Positions 4,226 through 11,285 of a stretch of 64,000 nt of DNA are shown here, in pieces. A program made the translations under genes and the position numbers. Where the stretch lies: the NCBI GenBank assembly GCA_947625435.1, contig CANQOI010000003.1, forward strand, positions 1,591 through 65,590, written 5' to 3'. The notes beneath the pieces were generated by a model. That model was not told the DNA's origin. It did not search any database and saw only the letters and a program-made list of their open reading frames with translations. Source of the stretch: an uncultured Clostridia bacterium (GTDB taxonomy: Bacteria; Bacillota; Clostridia; UBA1212; UBA1255). How positions within the stretch are numbered: the first letter of the stretch is position 1; every line of letters begins with the position of its first letter.

Positions 4226-4975
4226 TTACTCGTGCATGCCGTTTTTACGCAGCATATCCAGCACTCTGTCGGGAACGTTCGTTATTATTCCGGTTACGCC
4301 GAGCTCCATCGCGCGCTCTATGTCCTGCGGTGCGTCGACTGTCCACACGTTCACGTCTATACCGTTTTCACGGCACTTGTCCACTATTTCTTTATCCATG
4401 CAGTTTATCTCGGGATGTATGATATCCGCCTTATAGCTCCTGACAAATGCCACTGTCTCGTCCGGCGTCATTTTATGCCCGTACAGGAGCGCCGTCCTGA
4501 GATCGGGATGTGCTTCTTTGAGTTCTTTAAGCGACTTGTGGTCAAAGCTCGATATTATGGTGCGCTCCACACATGAATGTTTCACAAGTGAGTCGTACAG
4601 ATGATCAAACGCGAACGGCCTGTCGTCTTTCGGCATGAGCGGCTTTAATTCTATGTTTATCACACGCATGCCGTCCACTATATCGAGGAATTCTTCCAAT
4701 GTGGCTATGTGTGTGCCTTTGTATTTTTCGTCTGTACGTACCCCGAAGTCGTACTGCATGAGCTCTTCGTAGGTCATGTCGCATATCTCGCCCGTACCTG
4801 TCGACATTCTGTTTATATTGCCGTCGTGGCTCAGTACGTATATGTTGTCTTTTGTAAGACGTATATCGTTTTCGACACCGTCGGCTCCCATTTCAACCGC
4901 AAGTCTGAATGACGGCGCAGTGTTTTCCGGCGCGTAAGCCGAAGCGCCTCTGTGCGCCTGTACGTTTATCCTCAT
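4226..4975 (-). CDS. glycerophosphodiester phosphodiesterase (GDPD family)
   Basis: 249 aa. N-terminal HRGASAYAPENTAPSFRLAVEMGADGVENDIRLTKDNIYVLSHD is a typical GDPD/GlpQ-UgpQ signature. Confidence 0.8.
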   Translation of the reverse strand: MRINVQAHRGASAYAPENTAPSFRLAVEMGADGVENDIRLTKDNIYVLSHDGNINRMSTGTGEICDMTYEELMQYDFGVRTDEKYKGTHIATLEEFLDIVDGMRVINIELKPLMPKDDRPFAFDHLYDSLVKHSCVERTIISSFDHKSLKELKEAHPDLRTALLYGHKMTPDETVAFVRSYKADIIHPEINCMDKEIVDKCRENGIDVNVWTVDAPQDIERAMELGVTGIITNVPDRVLDMLRKNGMHE

Positions 4976-5119
4976 TTCAGCTACCTCCCGTTTAGTTCTT
5001 TTATACGGGACGAATTATAGTCTTTAATACTCATATTATCAAGATTTTTATTCCGCACCGGCGGCGGCGATAAATCAGTTATGGATTTATAAACTAAATA
5101 TTGTAAAATTTTTCTGTGA

Positions 5120-5165
5120 TTTTGCCTTTATAATTTGACAATCCGGTTATAATATGATAGGATAG
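5120..5165 (+). promoter_or_regulatory. candidate sigma-A-type promoter region for the ATPase/RloB module
   Basis: TTGACA at 5135-5140 and TATAAT at 5148-5153 cannot both be used because the spacing is wrong. The alternatives are TTGACA-17-TAGGAT, or a weak -35 with TATAAT. A strong RBS (GAGAGGAG) lies 8 nt before the ATG at 5194. Confidence 0.3.
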
Positions 5166-5193
5166 CAATGTAAAAAAGAGAGGAGATCATTAT

Positions 5194-6402
5194 ATGATCT
5201 GTCAATTTTCATTCAGGAATTTTATGTCATATAAAAATGAGGCTGTATTTGATTTCCAGGCAGCAGCTATTCCCGAGTTGTCCGACAGCGTTATTACGGG
5301 GGATAAGATGTCTGATCTTCTCCCGGCCTGCGTGATATACGGCCCAAACGGAGGCGGAAAGTCTAATCTGCTCAAGGCATTTGCCTGCCTTGTTTGTACT
5401 GTTGTAAAGCCCGTTGCAGATCTCGGAAAGACAAGGGAGGCTTTAATATTGCAGCTTGGGGCAGACTGCATTCCGTTTTTGCTCGATGACAATTCGCGGG
5501 ATGAGAGCACCATGTTCCGAGTTTATTTCCGCACTGACGGCAGCGAATACCGGTACAGCTTGGCTATAAATAAAGACGAGATAGTATCCGAATCTCTTTC
5601 ATGGAGAAATATCGGAGGGAAGAAAACAGGCGTTGTCTTTATAAGAAACTTTAGTGACATAGACCTCGGAGCCAGCATTAATAAGACAAGTGTCAACAAA
5701 CAAGTTAACCCCAAGATGCCTTATCTGTCTTTCCTTGCTATCAATTATGATTTTCCGGTCATAGCAGAGGTAATATCATGGTTTGAATCATGTATTATTC
5801 AAAGTTATGCCAATACGCATGTCGACAGCAGGATATTCTTTACAGATGAGAGCAACAAAAAGTCGATCATCCGAGCTTTGAATGATCTGGATATTGATAT
5901 CGCCGATTACAGATTCAGTGATGACAAGAAGCAAATGTATACTGTCAGAACAGTAAATGAAAAATCATATGAACTGCCTTTCGAATACGAATCCGACGGC
6001 ACAAGAAAGCTGCTTACAGCTCTTCCTATCATACTGATCGCACTTCGTTACGGAAGATTTGTTGTTATAGATGAGCTGGATGCCAAACTTCATCCGAAGC
6101 TCCTTCGTTATATAATCAAGCTCTTTCACAACCCCGAGATCAATAAAAACGGAGCCCAGTTGCTTTACACCTCTCACGATCTGACTACCATGAAGAATGA
6201 TCTGTTCCGCAGAGATGAGATATGGTTTGCATGTGAAAATGATTCTCATGAGAGTGAAATATATTCATTATATGATATTCGCGACGAAAATGACAAACAC
6301 GTCAATAATACCGCCGCATACGATAAGCAGTATATAGAAGGAAGATACGGCGCCGATCCTTACCTGCAGAATATTTTAGGAGGCGAATGGAATGAGTCTT
6401 AA
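5194..6402 (+). CDS. ABC-type/AAA_21-like ATPase (RloA/AbiLi-like, OLD-family ATPase-domain-like); candidate anti-phage system ATPase
   Basis: 402 aa. RecF/SMC-like N-terminus (FSFRNFMSYKNEAVFDF), Walker A (GPNGGGKSNLLKA), signature-like ESDGTRKLL, Walker B/D-loop (RFVVIDELDAKLHP) and H-loop (LYTSHD). A 60-mer sampled inside the island gave ~35% GC, against ~52% for one sampled in nifJ. Confidence 0.8.
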   Translation: MICQFSFRNFMSYKNEAVFDFQAAAIPELSDSVITGDKMSDLLPACVIYGPNGGGKSNLLKAFACLVCTVVKPVADLGKTREALILQLGADCIPFLLDDNSRDESTMFRVYFRTDGSEYRYSLAINKDEIVSESLSWRNIGGKKTGVVFIRNFSDIDLGASINKTSVNKQVNPKMPYLSFLAINYDFPVIAEVISWFESCIIQSYANTHVDSRIFFTDESNKKSIIRALNDLDIDIADYRFSDDKKQMYTVRTVNEKSYELPFEYESDGTRKLLTALPIILIALRYGRFVVIDELDAKLHPKLLRYIIKLFHNPEINKNGAQLLYTSHDLTTMKNDLFRRDEIWFACENDSHESEIYSLYDIRDENDKHVNNTAAYDKQYIEGRYGADPYLQNILGGEWNES

Positions 6403-7069
6403 GCCGACTAAAAAAACGGATCTTGGCAAGGACTGGCTTAAAGGCCGTGAGGCGCGGTCAACAAGAGTAAGACTCAATCCCGAATATCATCTTATTGTCA
6501 CTGAAGGAATTGATACAGAGCCGAGATATTTTGAAGCTATAAAAAACGAGATAAATAAGAATTTCAAAGACCGTATCAGCTTCGAAATAATCGGTACGGG
6601 AGATAATACAATCAGTCTTTTCAAAAAAGCTAAGTCCATCGTTGACAAAAGTCCCAATGGATTCAAGCACGTTTGGATCGTATACGATACCGACGACTTT
6701 CCACGGGAAAACATAAATCAAACTTTTGAGTTATGTAAGTCAAGCTCCACCGACGAAACAAAGTATCATGCTTTATGGTCTAATCAATGTATTGAACTCT
6801 GGTTCCTGCTTCACTTTGCCTACTATCATTCGGACATACACAGAACTGAGTATTGGCCGAAATTGACTGAACACCTAAAAAAAATCAATGCCGGAGAGTA
6901 TACAAAGGATCGCGATGATATGTATCTGATTTTGAAGCCGTTTGTTGATACTGCAATAAAAAATGCAAAAAAACTTGCATTTAGAAATCAAGGAAAAACA
7001 CCGGCAGAATCAGCCCCAGGCACTGAGGTATATCAGATCATTGAGATGCTTAAACCGTTTCTAAACTAA
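6392..7069 (+). CDS. RloB-family protein (TOPRIM/OLD-nuclease-like); partner of the ATPase
   Basis: 225 aa. N-terminal HLIVTEGIDTEPRYFEAIK matches the RloB I(V)CEGEKTEPNYF motif. HVWIVYDTDDF and ALWSNQCIELWFLLHF match the RloB WIVFDxDD and NPCFElWlllHf motifs. The start overlaps the ATPase stop by 11 nt, and AGGAGG lies 9 nt upstream. Confidence 0.8.
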   Translation: MSLKPTKKTDLGKDWLKGREARSTRVRLNPEYHLIVTEGIDTEPRYFEAIKNEINKNFKDRISFEIIGTGDNTISLFKKAKSIVDKSPNGFKHVWIVYDTDDFPRENINQTFELCKSSSTDETKYHALWSNQCIELWFLLHFAYYHSDIHRTEYWPKLTEHLKKINAGEYTKDRDDMYLILKPFVDTAIKNAKKLAFRNQGKTPAESAPGTEVYQIIEMLKPFLN

Positions 7070-7087
7070 ATGGATAGGAGATCACAC

Positions 7088-7267
7088 ATGAATGTAACCT
7101 TTGTAAATCCCGGAGTGGATTATATGATTTCGCGGATCATGGAGTCCCAATCCGAAGGTGAGTCCGCATTTTGGTCAGACCCTTTATTTCATTTCTTTCC
7201 TAAACTCGACAAAGCCCATGTCGACAGTCTTCCTTTTTCAACGATCTGCTGTGTAATGTCACTATGA
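7088..7267 (+). CDS. hypothetical small protein (59 aa) in the defence-island operon
   Basis: The ATG at 7088 is preceded by GGAG with a 7-nt spacer. The reading frame is open from the RloB stop. It is AT-rich and I recognise no domain. Confidence 0.3.
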   Translation: MNVTFVNPGVDYMISRIMESQSEGESAFWSDPLFHFFPKLDKAHVDSLPFSTICCVMSL

Positions 7268-7662
7268 ATCCGATCGAACCGCGTTTTCTCAAGGAGCATC
7301 GCTTTGATGTTTTTTATCTGAACAGCGAAAAAGGAGCTATCGGTGAAAGTATACATGAAATCGTGCACTTTATGTGGTTTTATGTATGGAATCAGTTGTT
7401 CGGTGACGATTACGATGAGTACGAGCGACCCTCGCTTAACCGGCTCAGTTCAATCAATCCTTACTTTCCCGGAGAAAACGGAGGATGTATATATCCCTGT
7501 TTCTTTGATATGAAGGTGAACGGTGTGCTGATACCGGATACGCTCAATACCATGTATAAGTCTCAGAGTATTGAAAATTTCATGCGCAACAGTTTTGCTT
7601 ATTGCAAGGAACACGAGACTGAAATCAGAGAGCACATGATCAAATCAAACGGAGCGGTATGA
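7264..7662 (+). CDS. hypothetical 132-aa protein with HExxH motif (possible small metallopeptidase-like protein)
   Basis: An ATGA overlap with the preceding ORF suggests translational coupling. HEIVH falls at residues 31-35 (GESIHEIVHFMWF), and there is a Cys pair (GGCIYPCFF). A terminator hairpin follows. Confidence 0.35.
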   Translation: MNPIEPRFLKEHRFDVFYLNSEKGAIGESIHEIVHFMWFYVWNQLFGDDYDEYERPSLNRLSSINPYFPGENGGCIYPCFFDMKVNGVLIPDTLNTMYKSQSIENFMRNSFAYCKEHETEIREHMIKSNGAV

Positions 7663-7675
7663 TAAATTCCCGTTA

Positions 7676-7709
7676 AGGAACGGCATGACCGAGATCATGC
7701 CGTTCCTTC
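7676..7709. terminator. strong hairpin terminating the island operon (also lies 3' of convergent nifJ)
   Basis: Perfect 14-bp stem AAGGAACGGCATGA / TCATGCCGTTCCTT with a 6-nt loop, followed on the plus strand by TCAGAATTTTATTGATTTTTC. Confidence 0.55.
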
Positions 7710-7736
7710 AGAATTTTATTGATTTTTCTTTACCGT

Positions 7737-10700
7737 TTACGCCTCGTACAGATCTCTCAGCTTGAGCAGATGCTCATACTTAGCCTTGGCGGCATCAGCA
7801 GCCTTGGCAAAGAGCTCCTCTGCCCTCTCCGGGAACGCCTGCTTCAGGCGGCTGTAACGCGTTTCACTCTGTATGAAGTCGATATAGCTCTCCGTAGGAG
7901 CCTTGCAATCGATCGTAAGAGGATTCTTGCCCTCAGCCTTGAGCGCAGGGTTGAAACGGAATGTCTGCCAATATCCGGCGGCAACAGCCTTCTTCATCTC
8001 GGACTGGCAGTTCGTCATGCCGCCCTTGACACCGTGCATTTCACAGGGAGCATATCCTATCACAATGGAAGGACCGTGATAAGCCTCCGCCTCCGTAAGA
8101 GCCTTTATAGTCTGGTTCATATCTGCGCCCATTGCTATCTGAGCCACATAAACGTAACCGTAGGACATGGCGATCTCGGCAAGGTTCTTCTTGCCTATGG
8201 ACTTGCCTGCCGCGGCAAACTGAGCTACCTGACCTATCTGGCTCGCCTTGGACGCCTGTCCGCCGGTATTGGAGTAAACCTCTGTATCAAATACCATCAC
8301 GTTTACATCCTCTCCCGAAGCCAGAACATGGTCGAGTCCGCCGAAGCCTATATCATATGCCCATCCGTCGCCGCCGAATATCCATACGGACTTCTTGGCA
8401 AGATATTCCTTGCTCGCAAGTATCGTCTTGCGCTCCTCACAGTCGCAGTCAAGTGTTTCGAGCTTTGCTATAAGCTTTGCGGCAGGCTCTGCATTCGCCT
8501 TGCCGTCATCCTTTGTATCAAGGAATGCGGTGCAGAGAGCCTTCACTTCATCATCGGAAGTCTTGTCGGCAATACGCTCAACACATGCTATGAGCCTGTC
8601 TCTTATGGCCTTCTGACCTAAGAATATTCCGAGTCCGTGCTCCGCATTGTCCTCAAAGAGGCTGTTGCCCCATGCCGGTCCGCGGCCTGAGTCACGGTTT
8701 ACAGTATAAGGTGTGGCAGGCGCCGAGCCGCCCCATATGGAAGAGCATCCGGTAGCATTTGAAATATACATGCGCTCGCCGAAGAGCTGTGTTATAAGTC
8801 TTGCATATGATGTCTCCGCACAGCCTGCGCAGGAGCCTGAGAATTCAAGCAGCGGCTGGTTGAACTGGCTGCCCTTTACCGAGAAATCGCTGAAGGATGT
8901 GGGCTTCTTCGTGACCGTAGCCACAGTATAATCGAATGCCGCCTGCTGATCCTTCTGAGATTCCTGAGATACCATGCGAAGAGCCTTTTCCTTGGCGGGG
9001 CACACATTTACGCACAGTCCGCATCCCATACAGTCAAGCGGGCTTATCGAAACCGTGAATGTGTATTCCTCGCAGCCCTTGCCCTTCATCTGTACCTTCT
9101 TTGTAGATGCCGGAGCACCGGCTGCCTCCTCCGCGTTCATGACGAACGGACGGATCGTGGCATGCGGGCATACGAAGGAGCACTGGTTACACTGTATACA
9201 ATTCTCGGGTATCCACTCAGGAACGTCCACGGCAACTCCGCGCTTTTCAAATGCGGCGGAGCCCTGCGGGAACGTACCGTCAGCTCTGTCCTTAAATACC
9301 GATACGGGCAGAGAATCGCCCTGCATCATGCCCACGGGCTGAAGTATCTCTTTCACAAATCTGGCAAGCTCCGGAGACTTACTGTTGACATCGCGCTCCT
9401 CTTTTACAACGGGAAGCGTCTTCCATGACTCGGGAACGTCGATCTTAACTATCGCGTCAACGCCCGCGTCTATCGCCTTATAGTTCATTTCAACTACGGC
9501 TTCGCCCTTCTTCATATATGACTTCTTGGCTGCCGCCTTCATATATTCGACCGCCGTATCTATCGGTAAAATGTTAGCGAGCGCGAAGAATGCGGACTGG
9601 AGTATAGTATTCGTCCTCTTGCCCATTCCTATCTCTCTCGCCTTGTCGATAGCATTTACTATATAGAACTTAATGTCGTTTTCCGCGATATATCTCTTGA
9701 CCTCTGCCGGCAGGTGCTTTTCAAGCTCCTCCGGAGTCCACTGACAGTTAAGGAGGAACGTACCGCCCGGCTTAACATCATTTACTATCTTATATCCCTT
9801 GAGCATGTATGACGGATTGTGGCATGCAACGAAGTCGGCCTTTGTTATATAGTACGACGACTTTATGGGCTTATCTCCGAAGCGCAGGTGCGATATAGTA
9901 ACGCCGCCCGTCTTCTTTGAGTCATACTGGAAGTATGCCTGTATGAATTTGTCCGTATGGTCGCCTATTATCTTTATCGAATTCTTGTTCGCGCCCACCG
10001 TTCCGTCTCCGCCGAGACCCCAGAACTTGCAGCTTATTGTGCCTGCGGGAGCCGTATCCGGAGCGGGCTTCTCCGCAAGGGAGTGATGCGTGACATCGTC
10101 CACTATTCCTATGGTGAAATTTCCCTTAGGCTCGTCGGCCTTGAGATTCTCATATACGGCAAATATGCTCGGCGGAGGCGTATCCTTGGAGCCGAGTCCG
10201 TAGCGTCCGCCTACTACCTTGGCATTTACGCCCTTGGAAGCAAGAGCGGCGGCAACATCGAGATAAAGAGGCTCGCCCAAGGAGCCGGGCTCCTTCGTCC
10301 TGTCGAGCACTGCTATCTTCTTAGCTGTTGAAGGTATAGCCTCTATGAGCTTCTCTGCGCTGAAGGGTCTGTAAAGTCTTACCTTAACAAGACCTACCTT
10401 CTCGCCGCGGGCATTCATATAATCTATTACTTCCTCAGCCACATCGCAAATAGAGCCCATGGCAACTATGACCCTGTCGGCATCGGGAGCGCCGTAATAG
10501 TTGAACAGCTTATAATTCGTTCCTATCCTGGCATTTACCTGATTCATATAATCCTCGACCACAGCGGGAAGTGCCTCATAATAGCTGTTGCACGCCTCTC
10601 TGTGCTGGAAGAATATATCTCCGTTCTCTGCGCTGCCTCTTAATACAGGATGCTCGGGATTGAGAGCTCTCTTTCTGAACTCCGCAAGAGCGTCCCTGTC

Positions 10701-11285
10701 TATCATGGAAGCAAGCTCGTCGTAATCCCATGCTTCTATCTTCTGTATCTCATGAGATGTGCGGAATCCGTCGAAGAAATTGATAAAAGGAACTCTGCCC
10801 TTTATCGCGGACAGATGCGCAACGGCGCCCAGATCCATGACCTCCTGAGGATTCGTGCATGCCAGCATCGCAAAGCCTGTCTGACGGCACGCATATATAT
10901 CGGAATGATCTCCGAAAATGTTGAGTGCGTGAGACGCAACGCATCTTGCGGAAACGTGTATAACGCAGGGAAGCAGCTCGCCCGCTATTTTATACATGTT
11001 AGGTATCATAAGAAGCAGTCCCTGGGATGCGGTATATGTCGTTGTAAGAGCGCCCGCCGCAAGGCTTCCGTGAACGGTGCCGGCGGCGCCTGCCTCTGAC
11101 TGCATTTCAATTACTTTAACTTTATCTCCGAAAATATTCTTAAGACCCGTAGCCGACCATGAGTCCGTCAGCTCAGCCATAACACTGGACGGCGTTATAG
11201 GATAAATACTCGCGACCTCTGTAAAAGCATAGCTCACATGAGCGGCGGCTGTATTTCCGTCCATTGATATCTTCTTTCTGGACAT
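7737..11285 (-). CDS. nifJ: pyruvate:ferredoxin (flavodoxin) oxidoreductase
   Basis: 1182 aa single-chain PFOR. The N-terminus (MDGNTAAAHVSYAFTEVASIYPITPSS), two 4Fe-4S ferredoxin motifs (CIQCNQCSFVCPHA, CMGCGLCVNVCP) and the TPP-binding domain are all recognisable. Confidence 0.95.
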   Translation of the reverse strand: MSRKKISMDGNTAAAHVSYAFTEVASIYPITPSSVMAELTDSWSATGLKNIFGDKVKVIEMQSEAGAAGTVHGSLAAGALTTTYTASQGLLLMIPNMYKIAGELLPCVIHVSARCVASHALNIFGDHSDIYACRQTGFAMLACTNPQEVMDLGAVAHLSAIKGRVPFINFFDGFRTSHEIQKIEAWDYDELASMIDRDALAEFRKRALNPEHPVLRGSAENGDIFFQHREACNSYYEALPAVVEDYMNQVNARIGTNYKLFNYYGAPDADRVIVAMGSICDVAEEVIDYMNARGEKVGLVKVRLYRPFSAEKLIEAIPSTAKKIAVLDRTKEPGSLGEPLYLDVAAALASKGVNAKVVGGRYGLGSKDTPPPSIFAVYENLKADEPKGNFTIGIVDDVTHHSLAEKPAPDTAPAGTISCKFWGLGGDGTVGANKNSIKIIGDHTDKFIQAYFQYDSKKTGGVTISHLRFGDKPIKSSYYITKADFVACHNPSYMLKGYKIVNDVKPGGTFLLNCQWTPEELEKHLPAEVKRYIAENDIKFYIVNAIDKAREIGMGKRTNTILQSAFFALANILPIDTAVEYMKAAAKKSYMKKGEAVVEMNYKAIDAGVDAIVKIDVPESWKTLPVVKEERDVNSKSPELARFVKEILQPVGMMQGDSLPVSVFKDRADGTFPQGSAAFEKRGVAVDVPEWIPENCIQCNQCSFVCPHATIRPFVMNAEEAAGAPASTKKVQMKGKGCEEYTFTVSISPLDCMGCGLCVNVCPAKEKALRMVSQESQKDQQAAFDYTVATVTKKPTSFSDFSVKGSQFNQPLLEFSGSCAGCAETSYARLITQLFGERMYISNATGCSSIWGGSAPATPYTVNRDSGRGPAWGNSLFEDNAEHGLGIFLGQKAIRDRLIACVERIADKTSDDEVKALCTAFLDTKDDGKANAEPAAKLIAKLETLDCDCEERKTILASKEYLAKKSVWIFGGDGWAYDIGFGGLDHVLASGEDVNVMVFDTEVYSNTGGQASKASQIGQVAQFAAAGKSIGKKNLAEIAMSYGYVYVAQIAMGADMNQTIKALTEAEAYHGPSIVIGYAPCEMHGVKGGMTNCQSEMKKAVAAGYWQTFRFNPALKAEGKNPLTIDCKAPTESYIDFIQSETRYSRLKQAFPERAEELFAKAADAAKAKYEHLLKLRDLYEA

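What the first reader, a model, noticed from the sequence alone, without database searches (positions are those of the whole stretch)
7088..7662. Two small coupled ORFs downstream of the ATPase/RloB pair, one with a HExxH motif
A 59-aa ORF (GGAG RBS) and a 132-aa ORF are linked by an ATGA overlap. They sit inside the same operon, before the terminator hairpin. The 132-aa protein contains HEIVH (residues 31-35), a HExxH zinc-metallopeptidase-like signature, plus a nearby Cys pair. These could be accessory, sensor or anti-toxin-like components, or the decayed remains of a larger gene. Neither resembles anything I can name.
Basis: seen in the sequence. Interest (0 to 1): 0.55.

Follow-up and report, generated by a model that had tools for sequence, protein, structure and literature searches.

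The report
Broken gene beside an AbiL cassette
The two small overlapping ORFs are the two halves of one broken ~260-residue gene of unknown function, wrecked by two internal deletions; it merely sits next to a self-contained two-gene AbiL-type phage-defence cassette, so the finding is ordinary.

Summary
A 59-aa ORF (7088-7267) and a 132-aa ORF (7264-7662) overlap by ATGA. The second carries HEIVH. Both lie after an AAA_21 ATPase/RloB (AbiLi/AbiLii) pair and before a strong hairpin.

The "accessory component" reading is not supported. Intact homologues are single ~259-268-aa ORFs that contain both pieces in one frame. Relative to them the window copy has two deletions:
- a 166-nt deletion between short direct repeats, which shifts the frame and creates the ORF1/ORF2 split;
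- a 45-nt in-frame deletion, which removes family-invariant W174 and E178, the likely third metal ligand of an HExxH...E motif.

Family-conserved residues are also replaced (R199G, L220P, D224N).

No ATPase/RloB relative lies near any of 80 intact genomic homologues. None of six loci with 68-79%-identical ATPase/RloB pairs carries this family. The parent family is widespread in gut Clostridia and has no Pfam, NCBIfam or PDB match. Its confident AlphaFold model has no significant structural neighbour. It may be a zincin-like hydrolase, but that is inferred. Interest in the finding itself is low.

The parts
7088..7662 (+). Pseudogene: remains of one ~260-codon gene of an uncharacterised HExxH...E family. 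It is 211 nt shorter than intact relatives.
   Evidence: Protein alignment A1 and DNA alignment A4 against intact L001, L002 and L003. Length check: 780 + 3 - 572 = 211 = 166 + 45 nt missing.
7073..7087 (+). Native ribosome-binding region of the broken gene (GGATAGGAGATC...). Similarity to intact homologues starts here, 4 nt after the RloB stop codon.
   Evidence: alignment, columns 15-30. GGAG at 7077-7080.
7088..7267 (+). ORF1. Residues 1-51 are the native N-terminus (MNVTFVNPG...SLPFS). Residues 52-59 (TICCVMSL) are an out-of-frame reading of native ...FNDLLCNVTM.
   Evidence: P0034 and L001 carry the same N-terminus fused in frame to the ORF2 sequence.
7234..7241 (+). Junction of deletion 1. 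It removes 166 nt (codons ~52-106 of the intact gene) and shifts the frame. It lies inside the microhomology TTTTCAA, present at both ends of the deleted segment in intact copies (CCTTTTTCAA ... CCTTTTCAA).
   Evidence: columns 179-344.
7264..7662 (+). ORF2. It starts at internal Met115 of the intact protein, with no RBS of its own. It carries the C-terminal part minus 15 residues.
7354..7368 (+). HEIVH codons, equivalent to H145-E146-x-x-H149 of the intact family.
   Evidence: E146 is invariant; H145 and H149 are at least 90% conserved over 45 members down to 22% identity.
7437..7440 (+). Junction of deletion 2. It removes 45 nt in frame and so loses KWILSEMVVESVMKD, including family-invariant W174 and E178.
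   Evidence: columns 548-592. Invariance.
7675..7708 (.). Perfect 14-bp hairpin between the convergent pseudogene (+) and the pyruvate:ferredoxin oxidoreductase gene (7737-11285, -). It is a likely terminator.
   Evidence: z = -5.4. Not called by the consensus scan.
5124..7069 (+). Neighbouring, independent two-gene AbiL-type cassette. It comprises a promoter-like site at 5135-5163, the AAA_21 ATPase (5194-6402) and RloB/Toprim (6392-7069).
   Evidence: blastn similarity to cassettes in other contexts spans 5124-7062 only.

Best explanation
ORF1 and ORF2 are not two genes. They are the wreck of a single ~260-codon gene.

Shown:
- A 166-nt deletion between short direct repeats removed codons ~52-106 and shifted the frame. 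The native start now yields 51 native residues plus 8 nonsense residues. The rest of the gene is readable only from an internal Met, which happens to overlap the new stop (ATGA).
- A second, 45-nt in-frame deletion removed 15 residues, including two family-invariant residues.

Inferred:
- The deletion mechanism was slipped-strand or illegitimate recombination.
- The remnant is a non-functional pseudogene.
- It may still be transcribed by read-through from the adjacent AbiL-type ATPase/RloB cassette, because no terminator intervenes.

The cassette is a self-contained two-gene mobile defence module that abuts the remnant by chance inside a ~3-kb low-GC islet.

The intact parent protein is a cytoplasmic, stand-alone protein of an undescribed family. 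Its conserved HExxH (in a helix) plus an invariant Glu 29 residues later (in the next helix), preceded by a small beta-sheet, most likely forms a gluzincin-like metal site for a hydrolase or peptidase. This is inferred from motif and predicted topology only (about 0.5 confidence).
For: One gene, not two:
- P0034 and 78 of 80 genomic homologues encode both pieces in one uninterrupted 259-268-aa ORF. The family's 90% clusters are overwhelmingly 259 aa.
- DNA alignment with the intact L001, L002 and L003 shows exactly two gaps, of 166 and 45 nt.

Loss of function:
- Deletion 2 removes invariant W174 and E178.
- Deletion 1 removes most of the long helix 50-98 of the model.
- Window-specific replacements hit conserved sites: F20S, R199G, L220P, D224N (conservation).

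No link to AbiL:
- tblastn, an RloB HMM and phmmer with the ATPase found no hit near 80 intact homologues.
- Six loci with 68-79%-identical ATPase/RloB pairs, in four different contexts, have other downstream genes and no family relative.
- Similarity to other cassettes ends at the RloB stop codon.
- AbiL is described as a two-component system (PMC13064643).

Recurrent decay of this family elsewhere:
- L080 has a 1-nt loss in an A7 run.
- L100 has an independent ~182-nt deletion with a different junction.
- L103 has a stop codon plus a deletion.
Against: - Pairwise dN/dS of the window copy against its closest relatives is still 0.18-0.21. The lineage-specific nonsynonymous:synonymous ratio is only 11:15. 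Decay is therefore recent, and residual constraint cannot be formally excluded.
- ORF1 keeps its native RBS and start, and ORF2 is translationally coupled, so both peptides could be made.
- No expression data were available.
- The zincin-like assignment of the parent family has no significant support: no Pfam, NCBIfam, PDB-sequence, Foldseek or hhalign match.
Confidence: 0.9

Rival explanations
1. The two ORFs are true accessory, sensor or antitoxin-like components of the ATPase/RloB (AbiL-type) operon.
For: They share the strand with the pair, no terminator separates them from RloB, there is an 18-nt gap between the RloB stop and the ORF1 start, and the hairpin comes only after ORF2.
Against: - Neither direction shows co-occurrence.
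- The ORFs are fragments of a gene that is stand-alone everywhere else.
- AbiL is a two-component system.
- Cassette similarity stops at the RloB stop codon.
Confidence: 0.03
2. The gene is split but still functional: ORF2 alone, or ORF1 and ORF2 together, acts as a reduced HExxH protein.
For: - HEIVH is intact.
- Pairwise dN/dS is still below 1.
- N-terminally truncated forms starting near the same Met are common in the databases (P0005 in 53 blocks).
Against: - ORF2 lacks invariant W174 and E178 and carries R199G, L220P and D224N.
- 55 codons forming the long central helix are gone.
- The truncated forms elsewhere come from independent frameshifting deletions with different junctions, which is the pattern of repeated inactivation.
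- ORF2 has no RBS of its own.
Confidence: 0.05
3. The deletions are sequencing or assembly artefacts and the real gene is intact.
For: Many database relatives come from short, low-coverage metagenome contigs.
Against: The identical broken arrangement appears in three further independent assemblies (L081-L083, 99.7-100% identity over up to 2.66 kb).
Confidence: 0.02

Closest known systems
Frameshifted or deleted pseudogene formed by short-repeat-mediated deletion
   Same: There are internal deletions relative to intact orthologues. One junction lies in a 7-nt microhomology. The frame is shifted, invariant residues are lost, and conserved sites are newly replaced.
   Different: Nothing unusual. 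The ATGA overlap that suggested translational coupling is a by-product of the frameshift meeting an internal Met codon.
AbiL (AbiLi/AbiLii) / RloAB / PARIS-like ATPase + Toprim(OLD) two-gene defence systems (neighbouring genes only)
   Same: The neighbours at 5194-7069 match AbiLi, AbiLii and RloB models strongly. They occur elsewhere as the same overlapping two-gene pair.
   Different: The ORFs in question are not part of it. No third component is conserved with this cassette. AbiL is described as two-component (PMC13064643).
Gluzincin / minimal zincin metallopeptidases (e.g. selecase-type minigluzincins, Peptidase_MA_2, SprT-like, the ArdC protease domain), as a comparison for the intact parent family
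   Same: HExxH sits in a helix (136-160), an invariant Glu lies 29 residues later in the next helix (172-185), and a small beta-sheet precedes them. The only thematically coherent weak fold hits are zincins: selecase 4qhf/4qhi, ArdC 6i89 and a viral SprT-like protein. One distant member is fused to a Peptidase_MA_2 domain.
   Different: No significant sequence, profile or fold match was found: Foldseek E > 0.2, TM <= 0.41; hhalign E = 0.12 over 17 columns. The 110-residue N-terminal helical region and the C-terminal helices have no counterpart. Metal binding is untested.

Membership tests
AbiL / RloAB-type defence system (as an extra component) | The component is conserved next to homologous ATPase/RloB pairs. 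| tested here: not met
   Six loci in four contexts carry 68-79%-identical pairs. Their downstream genes differ (HTH_32; an unknown gene on the opposite strand; PrgI of a T4SS), and tblastn finds no family relative.
AbiL / RloAB-type defence system (as an extra component) | Homologues of the ORFs lie next to ATPase/RloB genes. | tested here: not met
   In 80 genomic loci, tblastn over +-10 kb and an RloB HMM plus ATPase phmmer over +-6 kb gave zero hits. No neighbour family is conserved.
AbiL / RloAB-type defence system (as an extra component) | The system is described as needing more than two genes. | tested here: not met
   The review PMC13064643 lists AbiL among two-component systems.
Pseudogene of a longer gene | Intact single-ORF orthologues exist that cover both fragments collinearly. 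| tested here: met
   L001 (89%), L002 and L003 (81-82%) plus 75 more intact ORFs of 259-268 aa. Alignments A1 and A4.
Pseudogene of a longer gene | Disabling lesions are present: a frameshift, or loss of invariant residues. | tested here: met
   A 166-nt frameshifting deletion, and a 45-nt deletion removing invariant W174 and E178. R199G, L220P and D224N replace conserved residues.
Pseudogene of a longer gene | Selection has been relaxed since disruption. | tested here: inconclusive
   Lineage-specific counts are 11 nonsynonymous and 15 synonymous, and pairwise omega is 0.18-0.21 against 0.11-0.16 among intact copies. There are too few changes to decide.
Zincin / gluzincin metallopeptidases (parent family) | An HExxH motif is conserved across the family. 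| tested here: met
   E146 is invariant; H145 and H149 are at least 90% conserved in 45 members down to 22% identity.
Zincin / gluzincin metallopeptidases (parent family) | A third metal ligand (Glu) sits on the helix after the active-site helix. | tested here: inconclusive
   Invariant E178 lies in helix 172-185, after helix 136-160. Model coordinates could not be inspected for geometry.
Zincin / gluzincin metallopeptidases (parent family) | There is significant sequence, profile or fold similarity to a known zincin family. | tested here: not met
   Pfam, NCBIfam, PHROGs and the PDB profile search gave nothing. Foldseek against PDB and BFVD gave no hit with E <= 0.001. hhalign against a Peptidase_MA_2 domain gave E = 0.12.
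Zincin / gluzincin metallopeptidases (parent family) | The protein binds zinc and has peptidase activity. | not testable with these tools
   This requires purified intact protein.

The most novel reading that the evidence does not exclude
The wreck derives from an undescribed, widespread protein family, and that family is the more novel item.

- It has at least 497 clusters at 50% identity and is ~259 aa, mainly in gut Clostridia.
- It has a conserved HExxH...E site.
- Its high-confidence predicted fold has no significant neighbour among solved or viral structures.

The family might be a new kind of zincin-like hydrolase. Its repeated, independent inactivation in several lineages would then reflect a conditionally costly activity. 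A link to the adjacent AbiL cassette is not excluded in this one lineage, but nothing supports it.
Probability: 0.3. Interest if true: 0.4.

Novelty: not a real feature. Interest (0 to 1): 0.12.

Why it matters
For the scan, this removes a false lead. The AbiL-type cassette here is an ordinary two-gene module without new accessory genes. An ATGA-coupled pair of small ORFs after a defence operon can be just a frameshifted pseudogene.

There is a modest positive by-product. The parent gene belongs to a large family of conserved hypothetical proteins with an HExxH...E motif that has no Pfam or NCBIfam model. Its predicted fold has no detectable relatives. That could justify a new family entry and a simple biochemical test.

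Tried and rejected
Searches with the fragments and intact proteins that found nothing:
- Pfam and PADLOC with the two ORFs. The only hit was a chance GajA match at E = 0.043.
- Pfam, NCBIfam and PHROGs with intact and distant family members.
- A PDB sequence-profile search, which returned only coiled-coil noise.
- Foldseek of a pLDDT-91 model against PDB and BFVD, with no significant hit.
- hhalign of the family profile against the Peptidase_MA_2 domain of the fusion protein P0329, which aligned only the HExxH stretch (E = 0.12).
- tblastn of an intact member against plasmid and phage collections, with no match. A plasmid or phage origin is therefore unsupported.
- An Rfam scan of 4900-7800, which gave only sub-threshold hits.

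Apparent leads that dissolved:
- Clustering suggested a MetN/ABC-transporter neighbour in 25 of 80 loci. This was generic ABC ATPases at scattered distances.
- "Tandem paralogues" in L047, L059 and L066 were spurious high-GC ORFs.

Failed look-ups:
- An empty site or intact copy in the window's own genomic context was sought through the neighbouring GDPD protein. Only ~1-kb contigs came back.
- blastn of the window's first 20 kb against the 80 loci showed no flanking synteny.
- Searches failed on a coordinate that included a stop codon and were repeated.

Full report
**Observation**

- ORF1 is 7088-7267 (59 aa). GGAG lies 7 nt upstream of its start.
- ORF2 is 7264-7662 (132 aa). It overlaps ORF1 by ATGA.
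- ORF2 residues 31-35 are HEIVH.
- The upstream genes are an AAA_21 ATPase (5194-6402; PADLOC AbiLi 1.5e-79) and an RloB protein (6392-7069; Pfam 3.7e-40, PADLOC AbiLii).
- A perfect 14-bp hairpin (7675-7708) follows ORF2, z = -5.4 against shuffles.
- The same arrangement is present at 99.7-100% identity in three other metagenome assemblies, so it is not an assembly artefact.
- Neither ORF matches Pfam or PADLOC.

**The two ORFs are one broken gene**

A search with ORF2 returned relatives up to 228 aa. One of them, P0034, begins MNVTFVNPGADDMISRIM...DSLPFS. That is ORF1. It then continues in the same frame for about 53 residues into ...LFNDLQCNVTMNPIEPRFLKEH..., which is ORF2.

A scan of one genome per species found 146 coding relatives. 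Of the best 80:
- 78 carry an uninterrupted 259-268-aa ORF covering residues 1 to about 260;
- one is cut by a contig end;
- one (L080) is frameshifted.

A second protein search found more than 1,000 clusters at 90% identity, almost all 259 aa, and none with a name or a Pfam domain.

**The lesions**

DNA alignment with the closest intact genes (L001 at 89%, L002 and L003 at 81-82%) shows exactly two gaps in the window copy.

1. A 166-nt gap. Its junction (7234-7241) lies in the microhomology TTTTCAA, which occurs at both ends of the missing segment in intact genes. This is the classic footprint of a short-repeat deletion. It removes codons ~52-106 and shifts the frame.
   - The native start therefore gives 51 native residues plus 8 nonsense residues (TICCVMSL).
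   - The remainder is open only from internal Met115, which happens to overlap the new stop codon.
2. A 45-nt in-frame gap (junction 7437-7440). It removes KWILSEMVVESVMKD.

The arithmetic closes: 780 + 3 - 572 = 211 = 166 + 45.

**Evidence that the remnant is dead**

In an alignment of 45 family members down to 22% identity, the only invariant residues are E146 (of HExxH), W174 and E178. H145 and H149 are at least 90% conserved. Deletion 2 removes W174 and E178.

Deletion 1 removes most of the long helix 50-98 of a confident AlphaFold model of an intact member (pLDDT 91, pTM 0.87).

Changes unique to the window lineage include F20S, R199G, L220P and D224N, all at positions conserved in the family.

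Selection statistics are not decisive. Pairwise omega is 0.18-0.21, against 0.11-0.16 among intact copies. The lineage-specific counts are 11 nonsynonymous and 15 synonymous. This suggests a recent event.

**No link to the ATPase/RloB pair**

- Around the 80 intact homologues there is no relative of either AbiL protein. This was tested by tblastn over +-10 kb and by an HMM of 120 RloB sequences plus phmmer with the ATPase over +-6 kb.
- No conserved neighbour of any kind appears. An apparent ABC-ATPase neighbour was an artefact of clustering generic ABC proteins.
- Conversely, 68-79%-identical ATPase/RloB pairs were examined in six loci from four contexts. These were next to an integrase/HTH region, in a defence-like islet, and inserted between TrbL and PrgI genes of conjugative elements.
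- Each is the same overlapping two-gene pair. The downstream genes are unrelated, and no family relative is present.
- Nucleotide similarity between these cassettes and the window runs from 5124 to 7062. That is from about 70 nt upstream of the ATPase to the end of rloB, and it stops there. Similarity to the broken gene's homologues starts at 7073, in its own RBS.
- The whole stretch 4750-7750 is 37-46% G+C, between flanks of 50-55%. This is a small islet of acquired DNA between a GDPD gene and the pyruvate:ferredoxin oxidoreductase gene.
- AbiL is described as a two-component ATPase + Toprim/OLD system (PMC13064643).

**The parent family**

It is widespread. An exhaustive search gave 497 representative clusters at 50% identity with E <= 1e-3, mostly ~250 aa. 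Members come mainly from gut Oscillospiraceae, Lachnospiraceae and Christensenellaceae. They are chromosomal and are absent from the plasmid and phage collections.

It has no Pfam, NCBIfam, PHROGs or PDB-sequence match.

The model's element order is: a small beta-sheet (3-6, 109-114, 127-131), a helix carrying HExxH (136-160), then a helix carrying invariant E178 (172-185). This is what a minimal gluzincin looks like.

The only thematically coherent weak fold hits are zincins (selecase, ArdC, SprT-like). None is significant: all E > 0.2 and TM <= 0.41. A profile comparison with a Peptidase_MA_2 domain aligned only the motif.

I therefore propose, at about 0.5 confidence, that the intact protein is a cytoplasmic metal-dependent hydrolase of an undescribed zincin-like family. 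I do not file it as a member of any known family.

**Recurrent decay of the family**

- L080, the closest relative (93%), is frameshifted by loss of one A in an A7 run.
- The L100 lineage, seen in 53 collection blocks, has an independent ~182-nt frameshifting deletion of nearly the same region, with a different junction. It yields a very similar 67-aa + 149-aa ORF pair.
- L103 has a stop codon plus a deletion.
- Several metagenomic proteins show other internal deletions: P0016, P0033, P0034, and P0048 from Catenibacillus scindens.

**Verdict**

The "accessory or sensor" interpretation is rejected, and the "decayed remains" alternative is confirmed. As a candidate new element the finding is not real. 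It is a pseudogene lying next to an ordinary AbiL-type cassette. Interest is low (0.12). The uncharacterised parent family is a minor, separate point of interest.

Noticed in passing
window 5124-7069: The AbiL-type ATPase/RloB pair behaves as a discrete ~1.95-kb mobile cassette. Copies 68-79% identical lie in quite different places, including between TrbL_2 and PrgI genes of T4SS/conjugative-element clusters (L097-L099). Similarity begins ~70 nt before the ATPase start and ends at the rloB stop.
   Followed up: partly
window 4750-7750: A low-GC islet (37-46% against 50-55% in the flanks) holds the cassette and the pseudogene, between a GDPD gene (4226-4975, -) and the PFOR gene (7737-11285, -). 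No empty-site relative could be found.
   Followed up: partly
L100:2353-2950, L080:3641-4422, L103:2107-2983: The same family has been inactivated independently in other lineages: a ~182-nt deletion of about the same codons with another junction, a 1-nt loss in an A7 run, and a stop plus a deletion. Other metagenomic members show different internal deletions (P0016, P0033, P0034, P0048). The reason for this recurrent decay is unexplained.
   Followed up: partly
P0329 (488 aa): One distant family member is fused C-terminally to a Peptidase_MA_2 domain (Pfam 8.2e-10). This protein therefore carries two HExxH modules.
   Followed up: partly
L084-L093:5651-6978: In the most abundant lineage (P0121, 2,580 member sequences) the intact gene is flanked by a DUF6061 gene (79 aa) upstream and a 64-aa weak NikA-like (ribbon-helix-helix) gene downstream. 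DUF6061-like ORFs also precede the gene in 6 of the 80 genomic loci.
   Followed up: no
model md4eb085da3bd (intact member P0121): A high-confidence AlphaFold model (pLDDT 91, pTM 0.87) has no Foldseek neighbour with E <= 0.001 in PDB or BFVD. AlphaFold DB was not available for comparison.
   Followed up: partly
window 6213-6283 (+): A sub-threshold Rfam match to Gut-1 RNA (27.4 bits against a gathering score of 50, E = 0.016) lies inside the ATPase coding region. It is probably chance.
   Followed up: no
window 7070-7087: An in-frame ATG at 7070 directly follows the rloB stop (TAAATG), which would give a 65-aa version of ORF1. Homologues all start at the MNVTF/MEVTF position, so 7088 is the native start.
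   Followed up: yes
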